64,000 nucleotides of DNA from the human T2T-CHM13v2.0 reference genome, Homo sapiens, in assembly GCF_009914755.1 (NCBI RefSeq), contig NC_060932.1. One strand, given 5' to 3'. Of this stretch, positions 3,822 through 62,011 are shown piece by piece (within the stretch, counting starts at the first letter, position 1; each line of letters begins with the position of its first letter). A model generated the notes under the pieces. That model saw nothing but the letters and a program-made list of their open reading frames with translations, searched no databases and was not told the DNA's origin. Made by a program: the position numbers and the translations under genes.

Positions 3822-4217
3822 CTATAGTTCCAATGTGTGTGTCCTTCCAAATTCATATATTGGAACTTAAACCACAAGATCATAGTGTTAAGAAAAGGGA
3901 CCTTTGGGAGTTGATTGGGCCTTTGGGAGTTGATTAAGCCATGAGGACTCCTCATTCATGGATGGGATTAGTGTCCTTATATGTACAATTATTATGTGTC
4001 AGTTAAAAATAATAATAAATACAAAAAAGGGGGCGCTTGGGGAAGTGTCTTAGCTCCATTTGCCTTTCTACCCTTCTGCTATGTGAGCATGCAGCAACAG
4101 GCACCAGCTATGAAGCAGAGTGACCCTTCTCAGACCCCAGAATTGTAAGAAATAAATTTCTATTATTTATAAATTACCCCATCTAAGGTATTTTGTTATA
4201 GCAGCTCAAAGTAGGAC
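3822..4217 (+). mobile_element. MaLR solo LTR (MSTD/MLT1A-like)
   Basis: Begins ctatagttccaatgtgtgtgtccttccaaattcatat and ends gaaataaatttctattatttataaattacccc...ttttgttatagcagc. Confidence 0.8.
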
Positions 4218-5529
4218 ATCTAACCTTCCACTGTTAGGTAATTCCCAATAAATGAAAGTGACTATCTGTACCAAGACTTGTACGTAACTAATAGAGCTTT
4301 ATTTCTAATAGTTCAAATCTGGTAACATCCAAATGCCCCTAAATGGTGAATGAATGGGTAAATTGTAGTATATCCCTGTAATATTATGCTACTTGGCAAT
4401 AAAAAAGCAAATATTTATACATGCAATTACATAATTGAAATAAAACAAAAACATAGATGATTTTCAGAATCCTTATGCTGAGTTAAAGCAGCTAGGGGAT
4501 GAAGAATATGTACTGCATTTACATTTCCAAAATATGCAATCCAATCTATAATAAGAGATAGAAGTTCAATGGTTGTCTATGTATGGTGATGAGGGGAAAA
4601 ATGGGTTACAGAATGGGTCCATGGATGGTGTTGAGGGGAAAAATGGGTTACAGGAAGCCTTTGGGGATGTTCACTATCTTGGTATGGTGAAAGTTTCTCA
4701 GATATTTTTATTTGTCAAAACTTATTATATTGTTTACTCAAAATCTGTACAATTTTTTAATACATCAAGTTTACCTCAACAAAATGTTTTCTTAAAAGCA
4801 CCTCCAGCCACTCATTAATCCCAATTTAAGCTTTTTCTGGCTAAAGGAATATAGAAATAATTGTCTTCATAGTTAAATTCCTTTATTTCCATACTGTGTT
4901 TAATTATAAAAACAACAGCAACACTAAGCAATAGCATTAAAATACTAAAAGTTACTCACCTGTCCCCTAGAGTGATTATATTATGACTAAAACCCAAGGT
5001 GGTGTTAATCATAATGTTTAAAAATTTAGAGAGCAGAAAAATTTCTTGCTCAAATGTTTCATGGTTAACCAATGATATTCAATCTAGTAAATATTAACAA
5101 TACCACCAAAATGTAAAAAACAGTATAAATTATCTAACATATTATGTTTAAAAACATCCAACAAAACCAAGAAGAACACAAGTTTATTCTGGTTTATTTA
5201 CTTATTTTCCTTTAGTCTGCAAACTTGCACACTCACTAGGATCCAAAAGAGAAAAGATTATCTCTAGGACATAAAAGCAATAAAAAATTATTGTTACATC
5301 TGAAATCCATAAATTCATCATTATATGAAGGCCAGCCTCAGGCAAAATGGAAAAACAAAAGACGATTAGGGATAAAAAAAACCTTCGTATAGTAGGCATA
5401 AATAATATTTGTGTTTGAGACAATGAATAACAATCACATTCATCTATAAATAATCCAAACTGTACAAACAAAGGTACTCAAGTATTCCTTAGCTTATTGT
5501 GTGACCAGTCCTAAGTCTTCCTAATTTAA

Positions 5530-5810
5530 CCCCCATGTTTACATCTCTTTTAGACCTCTAAATGTTGAAATCTCCAGATTAGACCTCGGATTTTTTTGAT
5601 ATTTCTATGCCTACTGTTTCTGTGGTCTTTTCAGCATTTACACAGAACTTATATGATCACGACTCCATGACTCTTTTGAATTCCAGATGTATGTATTCAA
5701 CAGCATAGTCAATATCTTCACTAGGATGTCTTAATTTCATCTTAACTTTAATATACCTAGATAGGAAATTTTTCTTATTCTACTAATATCAGCTTTCAGC
5801 CCTGCCCAGA
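5530..5810 (+). mobile_element. L2 fragment
   Basis: ttccagatgtatgtattcaac...atcttcactaggatgtct...catcttaactttaatata resembles the L2 core. Confidence 0.55.
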
Positions 5811-8133
5811 GTCTTGTATTTTGATAAGTGGGTAAGAAAACAGTGAGGATGTGGCTGTGATGCTCTGGTTTTCTTTTTATTTGATAATTCTTCATAGAGG
5901 TTTTAGCGATCTTGATTTTACAATGCCACTTGAATAGGGAGAGTATACAATGCATGGCAGGGCTGCTTTGACTGAAATGTCCTCTCAATTTTTGAATATG
6001 GAGCCACTCTTTTATTATTTAATGTTTCTCGATAACCTAAAAGACTGGAACGTTGAGTTTCTACATCTTTGTTTTGTTTTATTTATTGTAGTATATTATT
6101 TGTGGGTTTTTAAAAATTATAAAGATTCATGTTGTACAATAAAAGGTATTGCTACTATTGAGTGGGAATATTCTTATCTATCTACTATCTACTGTTCCTT
6201 TCAAAGAGGGAGCCAACCCCAGTAGCTTTTGTTCACATTGTAAGGTCAAGCATTGGATTTGGTTCATATCCCAATAGCACCTGTCTCCAAAGGATGAGAG
6301 AACTTAGTCTCCTCTGGCTACAATAGTCGATTTTTACTTTGTTATATATTGAAGGCAATGCTACCACAGGTGTGAAGATTAAAAACTTTTAAAAATCTTT
6401 CTTATTTGTTACTTTACTTAAGTAAGAAATAAAGGCCAGAGATACAGATCAAACTATATCAATATGTAAATATGAATATGAAAAAATAACTATTTTTACT
6501 CTTGGAATGTGCATTCTTGCTGTTATTTTTCAACATATCAGCATAAGCATGCATTTTACTCATATTTTAAATGCTTTCCTAATGCATAACTATTTTATGT
6601 GAACTCAATTTTTCCTCTTTTTGTTCCCATGGATGTCATTACTTTATACAATCTCAATGTTCATATAAGTAGAATTCTAATATCTTTATATATTGTAATT
6701 GTGACTTTAAAATATTTTAGCCTGTCTTTAATCTTCTCCTTGTCTTCATTATGCAATGCATTTTCATTTAGAAAAAAATTTAAATCTTAACTTTATACCG
6801 CTCTCCAGTTTCTTCTCAATATTTCCCCCAAGAGTGATTTAAAAAATACTTCCCCTCATATTTTTTATCTCTTTCACTAGTAACTCATTTTACTTTCGTC
6901 CTTACTTAGAGATGAATTTTCTCACCTTTGCTTTACCCGCAGGATTTAAAGAAAGGTTTTGACTGTTCTATTTTGCCATCACTCTGTATGTTTGTCAGTT
7001 ATATTTTACTAGTTAAGTAATTGAGGAAATAGCATAAAAGTATTTACATGGGTTTCAATAGCTACTAGCAAAATTGTTCAGCATCCCTCTCTCAAGGACA
7101 TTTTAATCTTTTTTTTTTTATTCCTTCCTTGAGACCCACTGGGAAAAAGAATTCAATGTTTACTGTTGGCCTACATGGATTCTGACAAAAGGGCATTGTT
7201 TTTCATTTTGTCTAAGGAGCAGAATTACATTCATTGTGTCAGCTGGACTCATGATTACATCCTTCCTCTTGAAGACAATGATACTGGGTTTTATAGTGAA
7301 GGACATGGGGAATACTTTATCTTCCCTGTGTTTGCATGAGGAGACCATGTGACATTTACTATCATTTTCCATCTCTAAAATCATTGCCTTGTTATAAAAG
7401 CTTATGATCAAATTATTTTGCTATGAACAGGTATTACTAAAATCCTTGTTTGCAAAATAATAGAGAGGGAAGGAAAGACAAGAGGAAAGAAGACAGGAGC
7501 CTGTGATTATTTTAAGCAGTGAAAACATTTAATGTAAGAATATTAGGGAGCTTACAACATTGAAGTACACAAATTCAGTGATGTCAGCTCCTTTGTGTCG
7601 GTACCAGCTCTTGGGTCCCTTTGGCAGTGTGAGCAGGGCAAATACACAGCTTATCATATGTAACAGTGATTGACCAAGAGGAAAATGCAACACTAGGAAA
7701 ACTGAAAAGCCAATTTAAAATGTAGTAAAAAATTATTTGGTGGAGTTTAAAAAAAAATTCTCAAGGTTTTTATGATTTTTGGACACTTTCGTAGCTCACT
7801 GGTTTTAATCACAAATACATCTGTCAAAGTAAACTCTTTTATGTATTTCATTGCAATAATTCTTATATTTTAAAATTGTATTGCTGTGTTTCAAAGAGAA
7901 GTCTGTTTCTTTTTAATACTGTTTGACATATATTGATTATTTATGGAAAACACCCTTAATTTAATAAAAAGTATTTTCCCAATCTTGTGGTCTCATTATA
8001 ATAAAGAGCAAGTGTTCTAGGATAGTCTGTGGGTCTCAGAAACCATATCTGCACCAATAGAGAGAGGCAAAGGAGATTTCTGGAAAGGCTGGGAAAATAG
8101 AAAAAAAATGTTGAAATTGGAATTCTAAACATA

Positions 8134-11532: not shown

Positions 11533-12388
11533 TGTTACTGAAGCACCAGGGGTTTGGTCTAGATCCTGCTGATTGCTGCACAGAAAGCCAGTCACTGAGA
11601 CAATGAGTACTTCCAGGAAAGAAGGTTTTATTTGGGTGTTGCACCTGAGCAGATGGAAGATCAGTCTTAAATTTATCTCTGGCCTAATAAAATTGAGGGT
11701 TTATACAGTGGGGAAATAATGTATCTACATGTGGCTAAAGAGAAATTAGGGATGGCTAGAAAATCATGAGGGATGAGGGTTGATACAGTGTGGATATTTT
11801 TCCCCTTCAAATTTCATGTTGAAATGTAATCCCCATTGTTGGAGGTGGGGCATGATAGAAGGTGTTTGAATCATTGGGGTGGATCAATGGCTTAGTGACA
11901 TCCCCTTGGTGATGAGTGAGTTCATGTGATATCTGGTTGTTTAAAAGTGTGTGACACCTTTCCCCATCTTGCTCCCACTCTTGCCCTGTGATGTGCCTGC
12001 TCCCACTTTGCCTTCTACAAGGAATAAAAATTCCCTGAGGTGTCCCCAAAAGCCGAGCAGATGCCAGCATAGTGGTTCCTATAAAGCTTGCAGAACTGTG
12101 AGCCAATTAAACCTCTTTTCTTTATAAATTACTCAGCCTCAGGTATTTCTTTATAGCAATGCAAGAATGGCCTAATTCAAGGGATCTGGCTTCCCATTGT
12201 CTGGATGTGGTGACCTGGTGAATTTAAGTTTCTCAATACTATCTGGGAGGCCTGAGGGTCGGTTTCCTGAGGAAGGAACTCAGATAAGACAAATGCAAGC
12301 TTCAAACTTTAAGACCTGGAGGGTCAGTTTCTGTGTTTATTCTGAAAGACTGTAAATATCAGTTCTATGGGACACTTAAGCTGATCAC
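11533..12388 (-). mobile_element. MER4-group ERV1 LTR (MER39-like), split by MSTB
   Basis: tgttactgaagcaccaggggtttggtctag...; resumes after MSTB with gtttcctgaggaaggaactcagataagacaaatg...agttctatgggac. Confidence 0.7.
11781..12179 (+). mobile_element. MSTB-like MaLR solo LTR
   Basis: TG...CA termini, gagccaattaaacctcttttctttataaattac, and a 5-bp TSD agggt/aggga with one mismatch. Confidence 0.9.
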
Positions 12389-59030: not shown

Positions 59031-59275
59031 CTTGTGTTTAAGCCTTTCACATTTAAAGTGAGTATTGATGTGGTTGGATTGACATCTATAGTTTATCTAG
59101 TTGTTTTATATTCAATTTTTTCTTTTTTATTTTCTGTTTGCCTCTTTAAGTCAAATTGAGTATGTCTTATAATTCAGTTTTAATTCTTCTGTCAATTATT
59201 TTTACTTTTTAAAAATTATTTAGTGTTTTCTCTAAGGCTAATAATGTGCATTTGAAAATAATCTCAGTATGTTAC

Positions 59276-59738
59276 TGTTATGGTTAATACTGAGTGCCAA
59301 CTTGATTGGACTGAAAGATGCAATGTATTGTTCCTGGGTGTGTCTGTGAGGGTGTTGCCAAAGGAGATTAACATTTGAGTCACTTAACTGGGAGAGGCAG
59401 ACCCACCCTCAATCCAGGTGGACAGTCTCTAATCATCTGCCAGCACAGCCAGAATAGAAAACAGGCAGAGAAACGTAGAGAGAAACATAGAGAAACGTAG
59501 AGACTGGCCTAGCCTCCCATCCTACATCTTTCTCCCATGCCAGATGCCTCCTGCCCTCAAACATTGGACTCCAGGTTCTTTGGCTTTGGGACTTGGACTG
59601 GCTTCCTTGCTCCTCAGCTTGCAGACAGCTTATTGTGGAACCTTGTAATCATGTGAGTTAATACTCCTTAATAAACTCCTGTCTATATACACATCTGTCC
59701 TATTAGTTCTGTTCCTCTAGAGAACTCTGACTAATACA
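59276..59738 (+). mobile_element. MLT2A1/2 (HERV-L) LTR, serving as the 5' LTR of a chimeric provirus
   Basis: tgttatggttaatactgagtgccaacttgattgg...gtgtctgtgagggtgttgccaaaggagattaacatttgagtc...ctctagagaactctgactaataca. Confidence 0.93.
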
Positions 59739-61163
59739 GATATTGGTGCCAGTAAGAGTGAGGTGCTGCTGAAAAGATACCTGAAAATGTGGAAGTGATT
59801 TGAACTGGGTAACAGGCAGAGGATGGAACAGTTTGGAGTGCTCAGAAGAAGAAAGGAAAATGTGGGAAAGCTTGGGACTCCATGGAGATTTGTTGAATGG
59901 CTTTGACCAAAATGCTAATAAAGATATGGACAATGAAATACAGGCTGAGGTGGGAACTGGAACAAGGGTAACTTTTGTTATGTTTTAGCAAAGAGACTGG
60001 AGGCATTTTGCCCCTGCCCTAGAGATTTGAGGAACTTTGATCTTGAGGAAGACAATTTAGGGTATCTGGTGGAAGAAATTTCTAAGCAACAAAGCATTCG
60101 AGAGGTGACTTGGGTGCTGTTAAAAGTATTCAGTTTTATAAGGGAAGCAGGGCATAAAAGTTCAAAGAATTTGCAGCCTGACAATGCAATAGAAAAGAAA
60201 ATCCCAATTTCTGAGGAGAAATTCAAGCCAGCTGCAGAAATTTGCATAAGTAATGAGGAGCCCAGTGTGAATCCCCAAGAAAATGGGGAAAATGTCTCCA
60301 GGGCATGTCAGAGACTTTTGTGGCAGTCCCTCCCATCACAGGCCTGGAGACCTAGGAGAAAGAAAAGGTTTTGTGGGCTGTGCCCAGGGTCCCCATGCTA
60401 TGTGCAGTCTAGGGACTTGGTGCCCTGCTTCCAGCCACTGTGTTGAGCCTTCGAGTCCACAGAAGTCAAGAACTGGGTTTGGGAACCTCTGCCTGGATTT
60501 CAGAGGATATACAGAAATGCCTGGATGCCCAGGCAGAAGTTTACTGCAGGGGAAGGGCCCTCATGGAGAACCTCTGCTAGAGCAGTGTGGAAGGAAAATG
60601 TGGCTTTGGAGCTTCCAAACAGAATCCCTACTGGAGCAATGCCTACTGGAGCTCTGAGAAGAAGGTCACTGTCCTCCAGACCTCAGAATGGTAGATCCAC
60701 TGACAGCTTGCATGTGCACTTGGAAAAGCTATAGACACTCAATGCCAGCTGGTGAAAGCAGCTGGGAGGGAGGATATACCCTGTAAAACCACAGGGGCAG
60801 AGTTGCCCAAAACCATGAGAACCCACCTTTGGCATCAGTGTGATCTGGATGTGAGACATGGATCCAAAGGAGTCATTTTGGAGAGAGGCAGACTTAAGAT
60901 TTGACTGCCACACTGGATTTCAGACTTGCATAGGGCCTGTAGCCCCTCTGTTTTGGCCATTTCTCCTATTTGGAATGGCTATATTTACCCATTGGCTGTA
61001 CCCCCATTGTATCTAGGAAATAACTAACTTGCCTTTGATTTTACAGACTCATAGGCAGAGGGGACTTATGCTGAAATGAGTTAAGACTTTGGGGGACTGT
61101 TGGGAAGGCATGACTGGTTTTAAAATGTGAGAACATGAGATTTGGGAAGGGCCACAAGTCAAA
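59739..61163 (+). mobile_element. THE1-int (MaLR internal region, remnant ORF)
   Basis: gctgctgaaaagatacctgaaaatgtggaag...gaactgggtaacaggcagagg; ORF 60027-60446 (DNLGYLVEEISKQQSI...KFKPAAEICISNEEP); degraded PPT at about 61144. Confidence 0.93.
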
Positions 61164-61502
61164 TGATATGTTTGGCTGTGTCCCCACCCAATCTCATCTT
61201 GAATTCTCTTGTGTGGTGGGAGGGACCTGGTGGGAAGTAATTGAATCTTTCCTGTACTGTTCTCATGATAGCGAATAAGTCCCATGAGATCTGACAGTTC
61301 TATAAGGGGGAGTTTCCCTGCACAAACTCTCTCTTTGACTGCCACCATCCACGTAAGTTGTGACTTGCTCCTCCTTGCCTTCCGCCATGATTGTGAGGCT
61401 TCCCCAGCCAGGTGGAACTGTAAGTCCATTAAACCTCTTTCTTCTGTAAATTGCCCAGTCTTGGATATGTCTTTAGCAGTGGTCCGAAAACAGACAAATA
61501 CA
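61164..61502 (+). mobile_element. THE1A-like 3' LTR
   Basis: tgatatgtttggctgtgtccccaccc...gagtttccctgcacaa...catccacgtaag...aaaacagacaaataca, followed by TSD GTTAC. Confidence 0.92.
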
Positions 61503-61920
61503 GTTACTGTCAGTGAATCAAGGAGGGCTATTGTTGTGTCAGGTCTACTCGGTGTCGATGCTAAGGTCCTTCACACTCATCAGGGTGATCTGAGAGATGA
61601 GTCAGTGGGTGCAGAGCCACTGTGGCTGAGAATTGTTCTGGGGGTTAGCAAGCAGGAGATGAAAGTGGAGAAGAAAACCATGTCCAGGGGTTGAACACCT
61701 CCAGCTAAAGAAGGCCAGGCATAGAGGTGTCTTACGACTAGGGAACCTATTTGAGTCACTGCAATAAAGTATGTTCCTAGTAGTGAATCCACACAGGTTT
61801 GCAGCAACTTGATTCTTGCCCTCTCAGAGAAAATAATTCTGTTGAGAGGCATAAGACAGGGTGAGAGACTGAGGCAAGTTTTAGAGTAGGTGTGAAAGCT
61901 TATTAAAAAGTTTTACAGCC

Positions 61921-62011
61921 AACCTGGGAGGTGGAGCTTGCAGTGAGCCGAGATCGTGCCACTACACTCCAGCCTGGGCGACAGAGTGAGACTCCATCTC
62001 AAAAAGAAAAG
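61921..62011 (+). mobile_element. 5'-truncated AluY (about 90 bp)
   Basis: ggagcttgcagtgagccgagatc..., A-rich tail and TSD aaaagttttacRgc (61906-61919 and 62012-62025). Confidence 0.9.

What the first reader, a model, noticed from the sequence alone, without database searches (positions are those of the whole stretch)
59271..61507. Hetero-LTR provirus: HERV-L (MLT2A) 5' LTR + THE1 internal + THE1A 3' LTR inside one TSD, switching at the PBS
Seen: a complete MLT2A LTR (59276-59738, TG...CA) is followed directly by THE1 internal sequence and a complete THE1A-type LTR (61164-61502). The whole unit is flanked by one perfect 5-bp TSD, GTTAC (59271-59275 and 61503-61507), and the host MER50 sequence resumes seamlessly. 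No THE1 5' LTR or HERV-L internal sequence is present. The junction reads GATAT-TGGTGCCAG-TAAGAGTG. From recalled consensus, this begins like the HERV-L post-LTR sequence (GATTTTGGTACCAG) and continues like THE1-int (TGGTACCAGTAGAGTGG). Established: normal reverse transcription yields identical LTRs, and MaLRs lack pol and are thought to depend on ERVL enzymes. Inference: plus-strand strong-stop DNA made from a HERV-L genome jumped, via the shared primer-binding site, onto a co-packaged THE1 minus strand, and the heterozygous product integrated as one unit. That would be fossil evidence of a HERV-L helper / THE1 passenger system and of intermolecular second-strand transfer. It would also place THE1-int under an MLT2A promoter. 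I cannot tell whether this class of chimera has been systematically described.
Basis: partly seen in the sequence, partly recalled or inferred. Interest (0 to 1): 0.8.

Follow-up and report, generated by a model that had tools for sequence, protein, structure and literature searches.

The report
HERV-L/THE1 two-LTR chimeric retroelement
This is a decayed retroelement with a HERV-L repeat at its front and a THE1 body and repeat at its back, inserted as one piece; about thirty similar fossils in the same genome suggest that HERV-L and its presumed passengers were copied side by side.

Summary
An MLT2-type HERV-L LTR (59276-59738) is followed by a 5-nt spacer, a Leu-type primer-binding site, MaLR/THE1 internal sequence and a THE1-type LTR (61164-61502). 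A perfect 5-bp duplication, GTTAC, flanks the whole unit.

It is not a one-off. Five junction BLAST searches of the same genome found 29 distinct places (plus 2 partial) where an MLT2 LTR end runs directly into MaLR internal sequence; the last search found none that were new.

I read 11 of these in full. Eight have a near-complete THE1/MST-type 3' LTR abutting the internal part. With the window, 8 of 11 two-ended elements have a 5-bp flank match of at least 4/5 (chance P = 5.6e-13).

All 12 junctions cross over inside the short block that HERV-L and THE1 share: LTR end GACTAATACA, spacer and PBS. The chimeras' 3' LTRs fall in several supported THE1 subclades, and their 5' LTRs in two HERV-L LTR groups, so they arose repeatedly.

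The best explanation is exchange between HERV-L and MaLR reverse-transcription intermediates in one particle, most simply HERV-L plus-strand strong-stop DNA landing on a MaLR minus strand. The reciprocal form is rare (2 unverified pattern hits against 622 normal HERV-L junctions).

Nine literature searches found no description. Smit 1993 and Benit 1999 could not be read.

The parts
59271..59275 (+). left copy of the 5-bp target-site duplication, GTTAC
   Evidence: identical to 61503-61507
59276..59738 (+). complete MLT2-type (HERV-L) LTR, TG...CA, 463 nt; it holds a private three-copy 10-12 nt tandem repeat at 59467-59503
   Evidence: aligns end to end with HERV-L 5' LTRs and solo LTRs at 77-83%; end branch 0.14
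59739..59743 (+). 5-nt spacer GATAT between the LTR and the PBS; HERV-L length and start, with the last two bases as in the THE1 spacer
59744..59763 (+). decayed Leu-type primer-binding site carrying the THE1-type TA insert; the crossover zone
   Evidence: HERV-L reads CAGGAGTGG then TTCTAGAGG, THE1 reads CAGTAGAGTGGGG then TGCTGCTG; the tRNA-Leu assignment is recalled, not tested
59739..61163 (+). MaLR (THE1-type) internal sequence with a broken reading frame (longest ORF 139 aa); about 85-200 nt is missing near 60432-60440 compared with other copies
61144..61163 (+). purine-rich stretch abutting the 3' LTR (polypurine-tract position), as in ordinary THE1 copies
   Evidence: same context in L033-L037; function inferred
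61164..61502 (+). complete THE1-type LTR, TG...CA, 339 nt
   Evidence: lies in a 99* clade with the 5' LTRs of ordinary THE1 elements; end branch 0.092
61503..61507 (+). right copy of the 5-bp target-site duplication, GTTAC

Best explanation
The element is one integration product whose two LTRs come from two different retroelements. Its left LTR was copied from a HERV-L replication intermediate. Its primer-binding site, body and right LTR were copied from a THE1 (MaLR) intermediate. The join lies in the roughly 30-nt block that the two families share: the last 10 nt of the LTR, a short spacer, and the Leu-type PBS.

The simplest route has four steps.
1. A HERV-L RNA and a THE1 RNA were reverse-transcribed in the same particle.
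2. The short THE1 minus strand was finished first.
3. Its 3' PBS complement paired with HERV-L plus-strand strong-stop DNA (U3-R-U5-spacer-PBS) instead of its own.
4. Extension of both strands gave MLT2 LTR - THE1 body - THE1 LTR, and integrase inserted this with a 5-bp duplication.

Such a product cannot copy its own two-LTR structure, because canonical reverse transcription makes both LTRs alike. Each of the roughly 30 loci is therefore a separate event.

Shown: the architecture, the single duplication, the recurrence, the position of the crossovers, and the scatter over subfamilies.
Inferred: co-packaging, the strand-transfer step, and the kinetic reason for the one-sidedness.
For: 1. Single integration. 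The window has GTTAC on both sides. Of 11 two-ended elements (the window plus L031-L037 and L039-L041), 4 have 5/5 flank matches (window, L031, L036, L040) and 4 have 4/5 (L033, L034, L035, L039). The chance of at least 8 of 11 reaching 4/5 or better is 5.6e-13.

2. Recurrence. There are 29 distinct junction-spanning places plus 2 partial ones. Each search scored 40 of about 4200-6000 candidates. The fifth search found 19 spanning places, none of them new.

3. Same build. Of the 11 fetched relatives, 8 have a near-complete THE1/MST-type LTR abutting the internal part, and none has an MLT2 3' LTR.

4. Crossovers in 12 of 12 junctions lie between the LTR end GACTAATACA and the end of the PBS.
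- Ten have a HERV-L-type 5-nt spacer: GATAT in 6, GATTT in 3, GATTC in 1.
- Two (L034, L036) have the THE1 spacer GTAAAT.
- Five carry the THE1-type TA insert in the PBS.

5. Independent origins.
- On the THE1-type LTR tree, the chimeras' 3' LTRs sit in several starred subclades among ordinary 5' LTRs. Starred branches force at least 5 label changes.
- Five chimeric 5' LTRs are interspersed among HERV-L 5' LTRs and solo LTRs, and seven belong to a second MLT2 group. The end of that second group's LTR also precedes a canonical HERV-L junction at C4:80706036.

6. The two LTRs share no homology beyond the last bases, so first-strand transfer could not regenerate the structure.

7. One-sidedness. 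The reverse-type junction pattern gave 2 hits, against 622 for normal HERV-L and 1970 for normal THE1. On held loci the patterns were specific and found 12 of 12 HERV-L and 15 of 17 THE1 junctions.

8. ERV-L handles plus-strand strong-stop DNA oddly. About 6.5% of complete MuERV-L proviruses carry linker and PBS sequence after the 3' LTR (PMC5930517, passages read).
Against: - No experiment shows co-packaging or the transfer. Sequence alone cannot separate strand transfer from recombination between two finished cDNAs.
- A symmetric exchange should also give THE1 LTR - HERV-L body - MLT2 LTR. Only 2 candidates were seen, and their upstream LTR could not be read. The kinetic explanation (the short passenger finishes first) is my inference.
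- Two of 12 junctions carry the THE1 spacer behind the MLT2 LTR. Pure PBS pairing does not predict this without extra assumptions, such as a minus strand running a few bases past the PBS, or a template switch in the LTR end.
- Three of 11 two-ended elements (L032, L037, L041) show no flank duplication.
- The window's 5' LTR has a longer end branch (0.14) than its body (0.082) and its 3' LTR (0.092).
- 17 of the 29 places are known only from junction alignments. Some may be duplicates of one another (C2:89.49 Mb, C2:92.13 Mb and C10:38.73 Mb; C23:29.17 Mb and C24:11.59 Mb).
- Experimental retrovirology reports plus-strand transfer as mostly intramolecular (recalled, not read here).
Confidence: 0.65

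Rival explanations
1. The two elements were reverse-transcribed separately. Their finished or nearly finished linear cDNAs then recombined at the roughly 30-bp shared block, by host homologous or single-strand-annealing repair. Alternatively, integrase used one end from each cDNA and the inner ends were repaired. Either way this happened before or during a single integration.
For: It gives the same architecture, the same single duplication and the same crossover block. It explains without extra assumptions the crossovers in the LTR end (L034, L036) and in the spacer.
Against: It predicts the reciprocal product about as often as the forward one, unless selection differs. Only 2 unverified candidates were seen against at least 29 forward ones. 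A 30-bp homology is short for cellular recombination. It would still need both cDNAs in the same complex, so the helper/passenger conclusion would stand.
Confidence: 0.2
2. The loci are copies of a self-propagating chimeric family that keeps an MLT2 5' LTR and a THE1 3' LTR from one generation to the next.
For: About 30 copies share one architecture. On the internal-sequence tree the chimera label is more clustered than in shuffles (5 changes against a mean of 9.3).
Against: - Canonical reverse transcription makes both LTRs alike, and the two LTRs share no R homology.
- The 3' LTRs fall in several starred THE1 subclades among ordinary elements.
- The 5' LTRs fall in two HERV-L groups and are interspersed with ordinary HERV-L LTRs.
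- The spacers and PBS forms differ between copies.
- The clustering reflects biased sampling: the ordinary copies were picked for likeness to the window.
Confidence: 0.05
3. Post-integration history: a solo MLT2 LTR and a THE1 element inserted separately, and a deletion or gene conversion later removed the THE1 5' LTR.
For: Nested and rearranged repeats are common. Three of 11 two-ended elements show no flank duplication.
Against: - It would need a base-precise deletion at the same place in 12 of 12 loci.
- It would leave the duplication of one element on one side only, yet 8 of 11 have matching outer flanks (P = 5.6e-13).
- The bases after the MLT2 LTR (GATAT) do not repeat the left flank (GTTAC).
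- Gene conversion has no homology on the host side.
Confidence: 0.03

Closest known systems
Ordinary THE1 (MaLR) elements: THE1 LTR - GTAAAT - Leu-type PBS - 1.5-kb body - THE1 LTR
   Same: The PBS with its TA insert, the internal sequence, the purine-rich 3' junction, the 3' LTR and the 5-bp duplication.
   Different: The 5' LTR is replaced by an unrelated HERV-L LTR, and the spacer is 5 nt of HERV-L type instead of 6 nt.
HERV-L proviruses: MLT2 LTR - GATTT - PBS - gag-pol - MLT2 LTR
   Same: The full 5' LTR, the spacer length and the first 9 nt of the PBS.
   Different: No HERV-L internal sequence and no MLT2 3' LTR.
Intermolecular strand transfers in experimental retrovirology
   Same: The proposed step is an intermolecular second (plus-strand) transfer guided by the PBS.
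   Different: Those studies use near-identical co-packaged genomes and report the second jump as mostly intramolecular. Here the partners are unrelated except for about 30 nt, and the products are germline fossils.
Plant LTR-retrotransposon hybrids
   Same: Reverse-transcription-linked recombination between co-packaged RNAs, including autonomous and non-autonomous partners. A flanking duplication is used as proof of a single integration. Sources: three-LTR complexes with flanking duplications (PMC1950507, part 1 of 2 of the text read); the review of reverse-transcription recombination (PMC6894440, passages); sugar-beet chimeric TRIMs (PMC13570524, passages); soybean LTR swapping (Du 2010, not held).
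   Different: The cases I could read are three-LTR complexes or new lineages in which both LTRs were swapped. They are not elements with two unrelated LTRs joined at the PBS.
HERV proviruses with unlike LTRs from recombination between two integrated proviruses (recalled: Hughes and Coffin)
   Same: The 5' and 3' LTRs differ.
   Different: Those have unlike flanking duplications and LTRs of one family. Here the flanks match and the LTRs come from different families.

Membership tests
Single retroviral-type integration (one provirus-like unit) | Short direct duplication of target DNA flanking TG...CA ends | tested here: met
   GTTAC/GTTAC around TG...CA ends. At least 4/5 flank match in 8 of 11 two-ended elements.
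HERV-L LTR (MLT2 type) | Full-length similarity to LTRs that directly precede HERV-L internal sequence | tested here: met
   Query 1-463 aligns with LTRs of loci L056-L082, 12 of which continue into the canonical HERV-L leader.
HERV-L LTR (MLT2 type) | Assignment to subfamily MLT2A by a curated library model | not testable with these tools
   No Dfam or RepeatMasker library. Two LTR groups were seen (about 440-460 nt and about 540 nt) but could not be named.
THE1 / MaLR element | Internal sequence and 3' LTR like those of elements with THE1 LTRs at both ends | tested here: met
   74-84% identity over the whole internal part to 16 ordinary loci. The 3' LTR lies in a 99* clade with ordinary 5' LTRs.
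THE1 / MaLR element | Two like LTRs | tested here: not met
   The 5' LTR is MLT2-type. The best LTR-to-LTR local match is 15 of 17 nt.
HERV-L provirus | HERV-L gag-pol internal sequence | tested here: not met
   No similarity inside 59276-61502 to HERV-L internal sequence from 12 loci.
Product of intermolecular plus-strand strong-stop transfer | Whole 5' LTR from one parent; PBS-proximal crossover; the rest from the other parent; a single duplication | tested here: met
   12 of 12 crossovers lie in the LTR-end/spacer/PBS block.
Product of intermolecular plus-strand strong-stop transfer | Formation during reverse transcription in a particle holding both RNAs | not testable with these tools

The most novel reading that the evidence does not exclude
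The human genome holds about 30 independent fossils in which a MaLR (THE1/MST) minus strand captured HERV-L plus-strand strong-stop DNA. That would be direct physical evidence that HERV-L particles packaged and reverse-transcribed MaLR RNAs, making HERV-L the long-assumed helper. The strong one-sidedness (forward at least 29, reverse at most a few) would record the kinetics of second-strand transfer, with a short passenger beating a long helper. Because unlike LTRs cannot recombine into a solo LTR, these chimeras would also be unusually durable full-length copies.
Probability: 0.5. Interest if true: 0.75.

Novelty: new variant of a known kind. Interest (0 to 1): 0.65.

Why it matters
MaLRs make up several percent of the human genome and encode no polymerase. 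That ERV-L supplied their enzymes is a standard assumption resting on sequence kinship, not on a physical link. A set of single-integration chimeras joined exactly at the shared primer-binding block would be such a link. It ties particular HERV-L LTR groups to particular THE1/MST subfamilies that were active at the same time. It also gives a natural record of an intermolecular second-strand transfer, a step seldom seen outside vector experiments.

There are practical consequences too. These loci put a MaLR body behind a HERV-L promoter. They also break annotation rules that pair LTRs by family and dating methods that compare the two LTRs of one element.

Tried and rejected
- Finding HERV-L through its dUTPase (Pfam PF00692). 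None of the 12 fetched loci had an MLT2 LTR nearby. They are probably other ERV groups. I dropped this route and used the LTR-plus-PBS query instead.
- Whole-element BLAST with L036. The 40 scored candidates, of 21653, were all ordinary THE1 apart from the query itself, so it was useless for the census.
- Fetching the 7 new loci. As a result 17 of the 29 places are known only from junction alignments.
I shortened it to 35 places for the same tool.
- Checking that the flanks are one continuous MER50.
- Papers not held: Du 2010, Smit 1993 and Benit 1999. One literature search failed on term length.
- Internal-sequence tree. It is star-like with no starred branch, so it neither shows nor excludes a single origin. 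The LTR tree was decisive instead.
- I considered proving the upstream LTR of the two reverse-type candidates with a further composite pattern.
Full report
**What is at the site.**
- GTTAC at 59271-59275.
- An LTR from TGTTATGG (59276) to ACTAATACA (59738).
- The five bases GATAT.
- A decayed Leu-type primer-binding site, TGGTGCCAGTAAGAGTGAGG.
- 1.4 kb of internal sequence.
- A second LTR from TGATATG (61164) to AAATACA (61502).
- GTTAC again at 61503-61507.

The two LTRs are unrelated: the best local match is 15 of 17 nt. The internal reading frame is broken, with a longest ORF of 139 aa.

**Identity of the three parts.** No repeat library was available, so I identified the parts by their company in the same genome.
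- 5' LTR. A query made of the LTR end plus the PBS from a relative (40 of 3508 candidates scored) brought 30 loci, two of them re-finds of chimeras already held. The window's 5' LTR aligns end to end, at 77-83%, with 27 of the other 28 LTRs; L079 aligns in two pieces.
- Twelve of those 30 loci continue as GATTT (once GATAT) + TGGTACCAGGAGTGG + TTCTAGAGGAAC.... This leader has no BLAST similarity to the window's internal part. I take it to be canonical HERV-L. The same junction pattern occurs 622 times in the genome at up to 3 mismatches.
- Internal part. It matches, over its whole length at 74-84%, the internal parts of loci that carry THE1-type LTR sequence on both sides.
- Ordinary THE1 junction. 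These elements read LTR end + GTAAAT + TGGTACCAGTAGAGTGGGG + TGCTGCTG. The spacer is 6 nt in 18 of 18 and exactly GTAAAT in 14 of 18. The pattern has 1970 hits.
- 3' LTR. The window's 3' LTR sits in a 99* clade with such 5' LTRs.

The subfamily labels MLT2A and THE1A, and the MER50 flank, remain untested.

**It is not unique.** A BLAST of the window's junction against its own genome (40 of 4237 candidates scored) returned 11 other places that span both the MLT2 side and the internal side. I fetched 6 kb around each.
- All 11 have an MLT2-type LTR running directly into MaLR internal sequence.
- Eight have a near-complete THE1/MST-type LTR abutting the end of the internal part (L031, L033-L037, L039, L040).
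- L032 is internally deleted, L038 is truncated, and L041 has a fragmentary 3' LTR.
- None has an MLT2 LTR at the 3' end.

Four more junction queries taken from relatives raised the count to 29 distinct places plus 2 with only about 45 nt of LTR.
- The last query found 19 spanning places, none of them new, so this kind of search is near saturation.
Seventeen places are therefore known only from their junction alignments.
- A few may be duplicates of each other (two on C2 and one on C10 near the centromeres; one each on C23 and C24).

**One integration each.** With the LTR ends set by alignment to the window:
- The 5-nt flanks match 5/5 in the window, L031, L036 and L040.
- They match 4/5 in L033, L034, L035 and L039.
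- They do not match in L032, L037 and L041.

By chance, a match of at least 4/5 has probability 16/1024 per locus. Eight or more out of 11 has probability 5.6e-13. The duplications differ from locus to locus, so these are separate insertions and not segmental copies.

**Where the parents are joined.** HERV-L and THE1 share the last ten bases of the LTR (GACTAATACA), a spacer of 5 or 6 nt, and the first 15 nt or so of the PBS. All 12 sequenced junctions switch inside this block.
- Ten have a 5-nt spacer of HERV-L type: GATAT in 6, GATTT in 3, GATTC in 1.
- Two (L034, L036) have the THE1 spacer GTAAAT behind an MLT2 LTR, which puts their crossover in the shared LTR end.
- Five carry the THE1-type TA insert in the PBS: the window, L036, L037, L039 and L040.

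The window's crossover therefore lies between spacer position -3 and PBS position +10.

GATAT is rare at normal HERV-L junctions: 1 of 14 PBS-bearing loci, against 6 of 10 chimeras with a HERV-L-type spacer (Fisher P = 0.009). L055, an odd locus with GATAT, was left out of that count. GATAT reads as HERV-L GAT followed by the last two bases of the THE1 spacer. This hints that the THE1-derived strand often reached two bases past the PBS. The sample is small, and I treat this as a lead only.

**Separate origins, not a family.**
- 3' LTRs. On the tree of THE1-type LTRs (9 chimeric 3' LTRs and 16 ordinary 5' LTRs; 5 starred branches), the chimeras sit in several supported subclades beside ordinary elements. 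Starred branches alone force at least 5 changes of label, and the label is no more clustered than in shuffles.
- 5' LTRs. On the MLT2 tree, five chimeric 5' LTRs (the window, L035, L036, L039, L040) are scattered among HERV-L 5' LTRs and solo LTRs. Seven belong to a second, longer MLT2 group, which my reference set did not sample. The end of that group's LTR also precedes a canonical HERV-L junction at C4:80706036.
- Pairing. The second group pairs with the more basal THE1/MST-type LTRs and mostly with a PBS lacking the TA insert. The first group pairs with two younger THE1 clades. This fits partners that were active at the same time.
- Internal sequence. That tree is star-like with no starred branch, so it decides nothing.
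- Age. The window's end branches are 0.14 (5' LTR), 0.082 (body) and 0.092 (3' LTR). These are the same order of age, though the 5' LTR is somewhat longer.

**Mechanism.** Canonical reverse transcription builds the left LTR from plus-strand strong-stop DNA, which is itself copied from the right end of the minus strand. That is why the two LTRs come out alike. A whole left LTR from another element needs plus-strand strong-stop DNA templated on a second minus strand. The only homology available to guide it onto the first minus strand is the PBS and its surroundings, which is exactly where all the joins lie.

The product's RNA would begin in MLT2 R and end in THE1 R. These share no homology, so the structure cannot breed true. 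This agrees with the scatter on the trees.

I therefore read each locus as HERV-L plus-strand strong-stop DNA captured by a MaLR minus strand in a particle holding both intermediates. The co-packaging and the transfer step are inferred. Recombination between two finished cDNAs at the same 30 bp would leave the same sequence, and it is my main rival (0.2).

**One-sidedness.**
- Reverse pattern. A pattern for the reciprocal junction (THE1-type spacer, PBS, HERV-L leader) found 2 places, C6:146051924 and C2:179556684, with 2 and 3 mismatches. I could not read their upstream LTR. The normal HERV-L junction pattern found 622 places.
- Pattern performance. On held loci the patterns did not cross-match. 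They found 12 of 12 HERV-L junctions and 15 of 17 THE1 junctions, but the forward-chimera pattern found only 3 of 12 known chimeras. The reverse count could therefore be too low by a few-fold.
- Forward pattern in the genome. It gave 25 hits, four at known chimeras and one new candidate at C5:136257764.
- Conclusion. Even allowing for this, forward products (at least 29) outnumber reverse ones.
- Possible reason. This is my inference.
- Related report. About 6.5% of complete MuERV-L proviruses carry linker and PBS sequence after the 3' LTR (PMC5930517, passages read). That shows ERV-L handles this step loosely.

**What is known.** Nine full-text searches found no description of MLT2/THE1 or ERV-L/MaLR elements with unlike LTRs inside one duplication.
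- A recent ERV review calls MaLRs pol-less relatives of ERV-L, citing homology with ERV-L gag (PMC11359688, passages).
- The large HERV classification paper states that a thorough analysis of MaLR was outside its scope (PMC4724089, passages).
- Plant work describes hybrids linked to reverse transcription, and three-LTR complexes proved by flanking duplications (PMC1950507, part 1 of 2; PMC6894440 and PMC13570524, passages).
- Smit 1993, Benit 1999 and Du 2010 are not held. Curated repeat-library notes could not be seen. An earlier mention cannot be excluded.

I rate this a new variant of a known kind: recombination between co-replicating retroelements, seen here as hetero-LTR fossils that tie a non-autonomous family to its presumed helper.

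**Verdict.** The mechanism is well supported as to where and how often the exchange happened, and inferred as to how. Interest 0.65.

Noticed in passing
window 59467-59503: Three tandem copies of a 10-12 nt unit (AGAGAAACGTAGAGA-like) inside the MLT2-type LTR. This is a private expansion and may add to the LTR's long end branch (0.14).
   Followed up: no
window about 60432-60440: The internal part lacks about 85-200 nt that other THE1-type copies carry at this point. All alignments break here.
   Followed up: partly
L081:1717-3235 and L067:1728-3239: These are MLT2 LTR + GATTT + PBS followed by sequence that is neither the canonical HERV-L leader nor MaLR. The two share a 690-nt stretch at 82%. 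They may be internally deleted HERV-L derivatives or another passenger.
   Followed up: partly
L055, just after the LTR end (minus strand of the locus): An MLT2 LTR followed by GATAT and a PBS-like TTGGAGCCAG, then unrelated sequence. I left it out of the spacer statistics.
   Followed up: no
genome places listed: Many MaLR-like PBS junctions have spacers such as GAAAT or GAAGT and PBS variants such as CCAAGAAGTGGGGG. They presumably belong to other MaLR families, whose LTR-PBS spacers differ from those of THE1.
   Followed up: no
C2:89492300, C2:92131788, C10:38728766; C23:29167393, C24:11586563: These junction-spanning places lie in regions where segmental or X/Y duplication is plausible. 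They may not be independent events.
   Followed up: no
window 12093-12153: A 61-nt fragment with 77% identity to positions 252-312 of the THE1-type LTR.
   Followed up: no
window 61921-62000: An 80-nt stretch just beyond the element matches about 300-nt insertions found in both orientations in several fetched loci. It is probably an Alu fragment.
   Followed up: no
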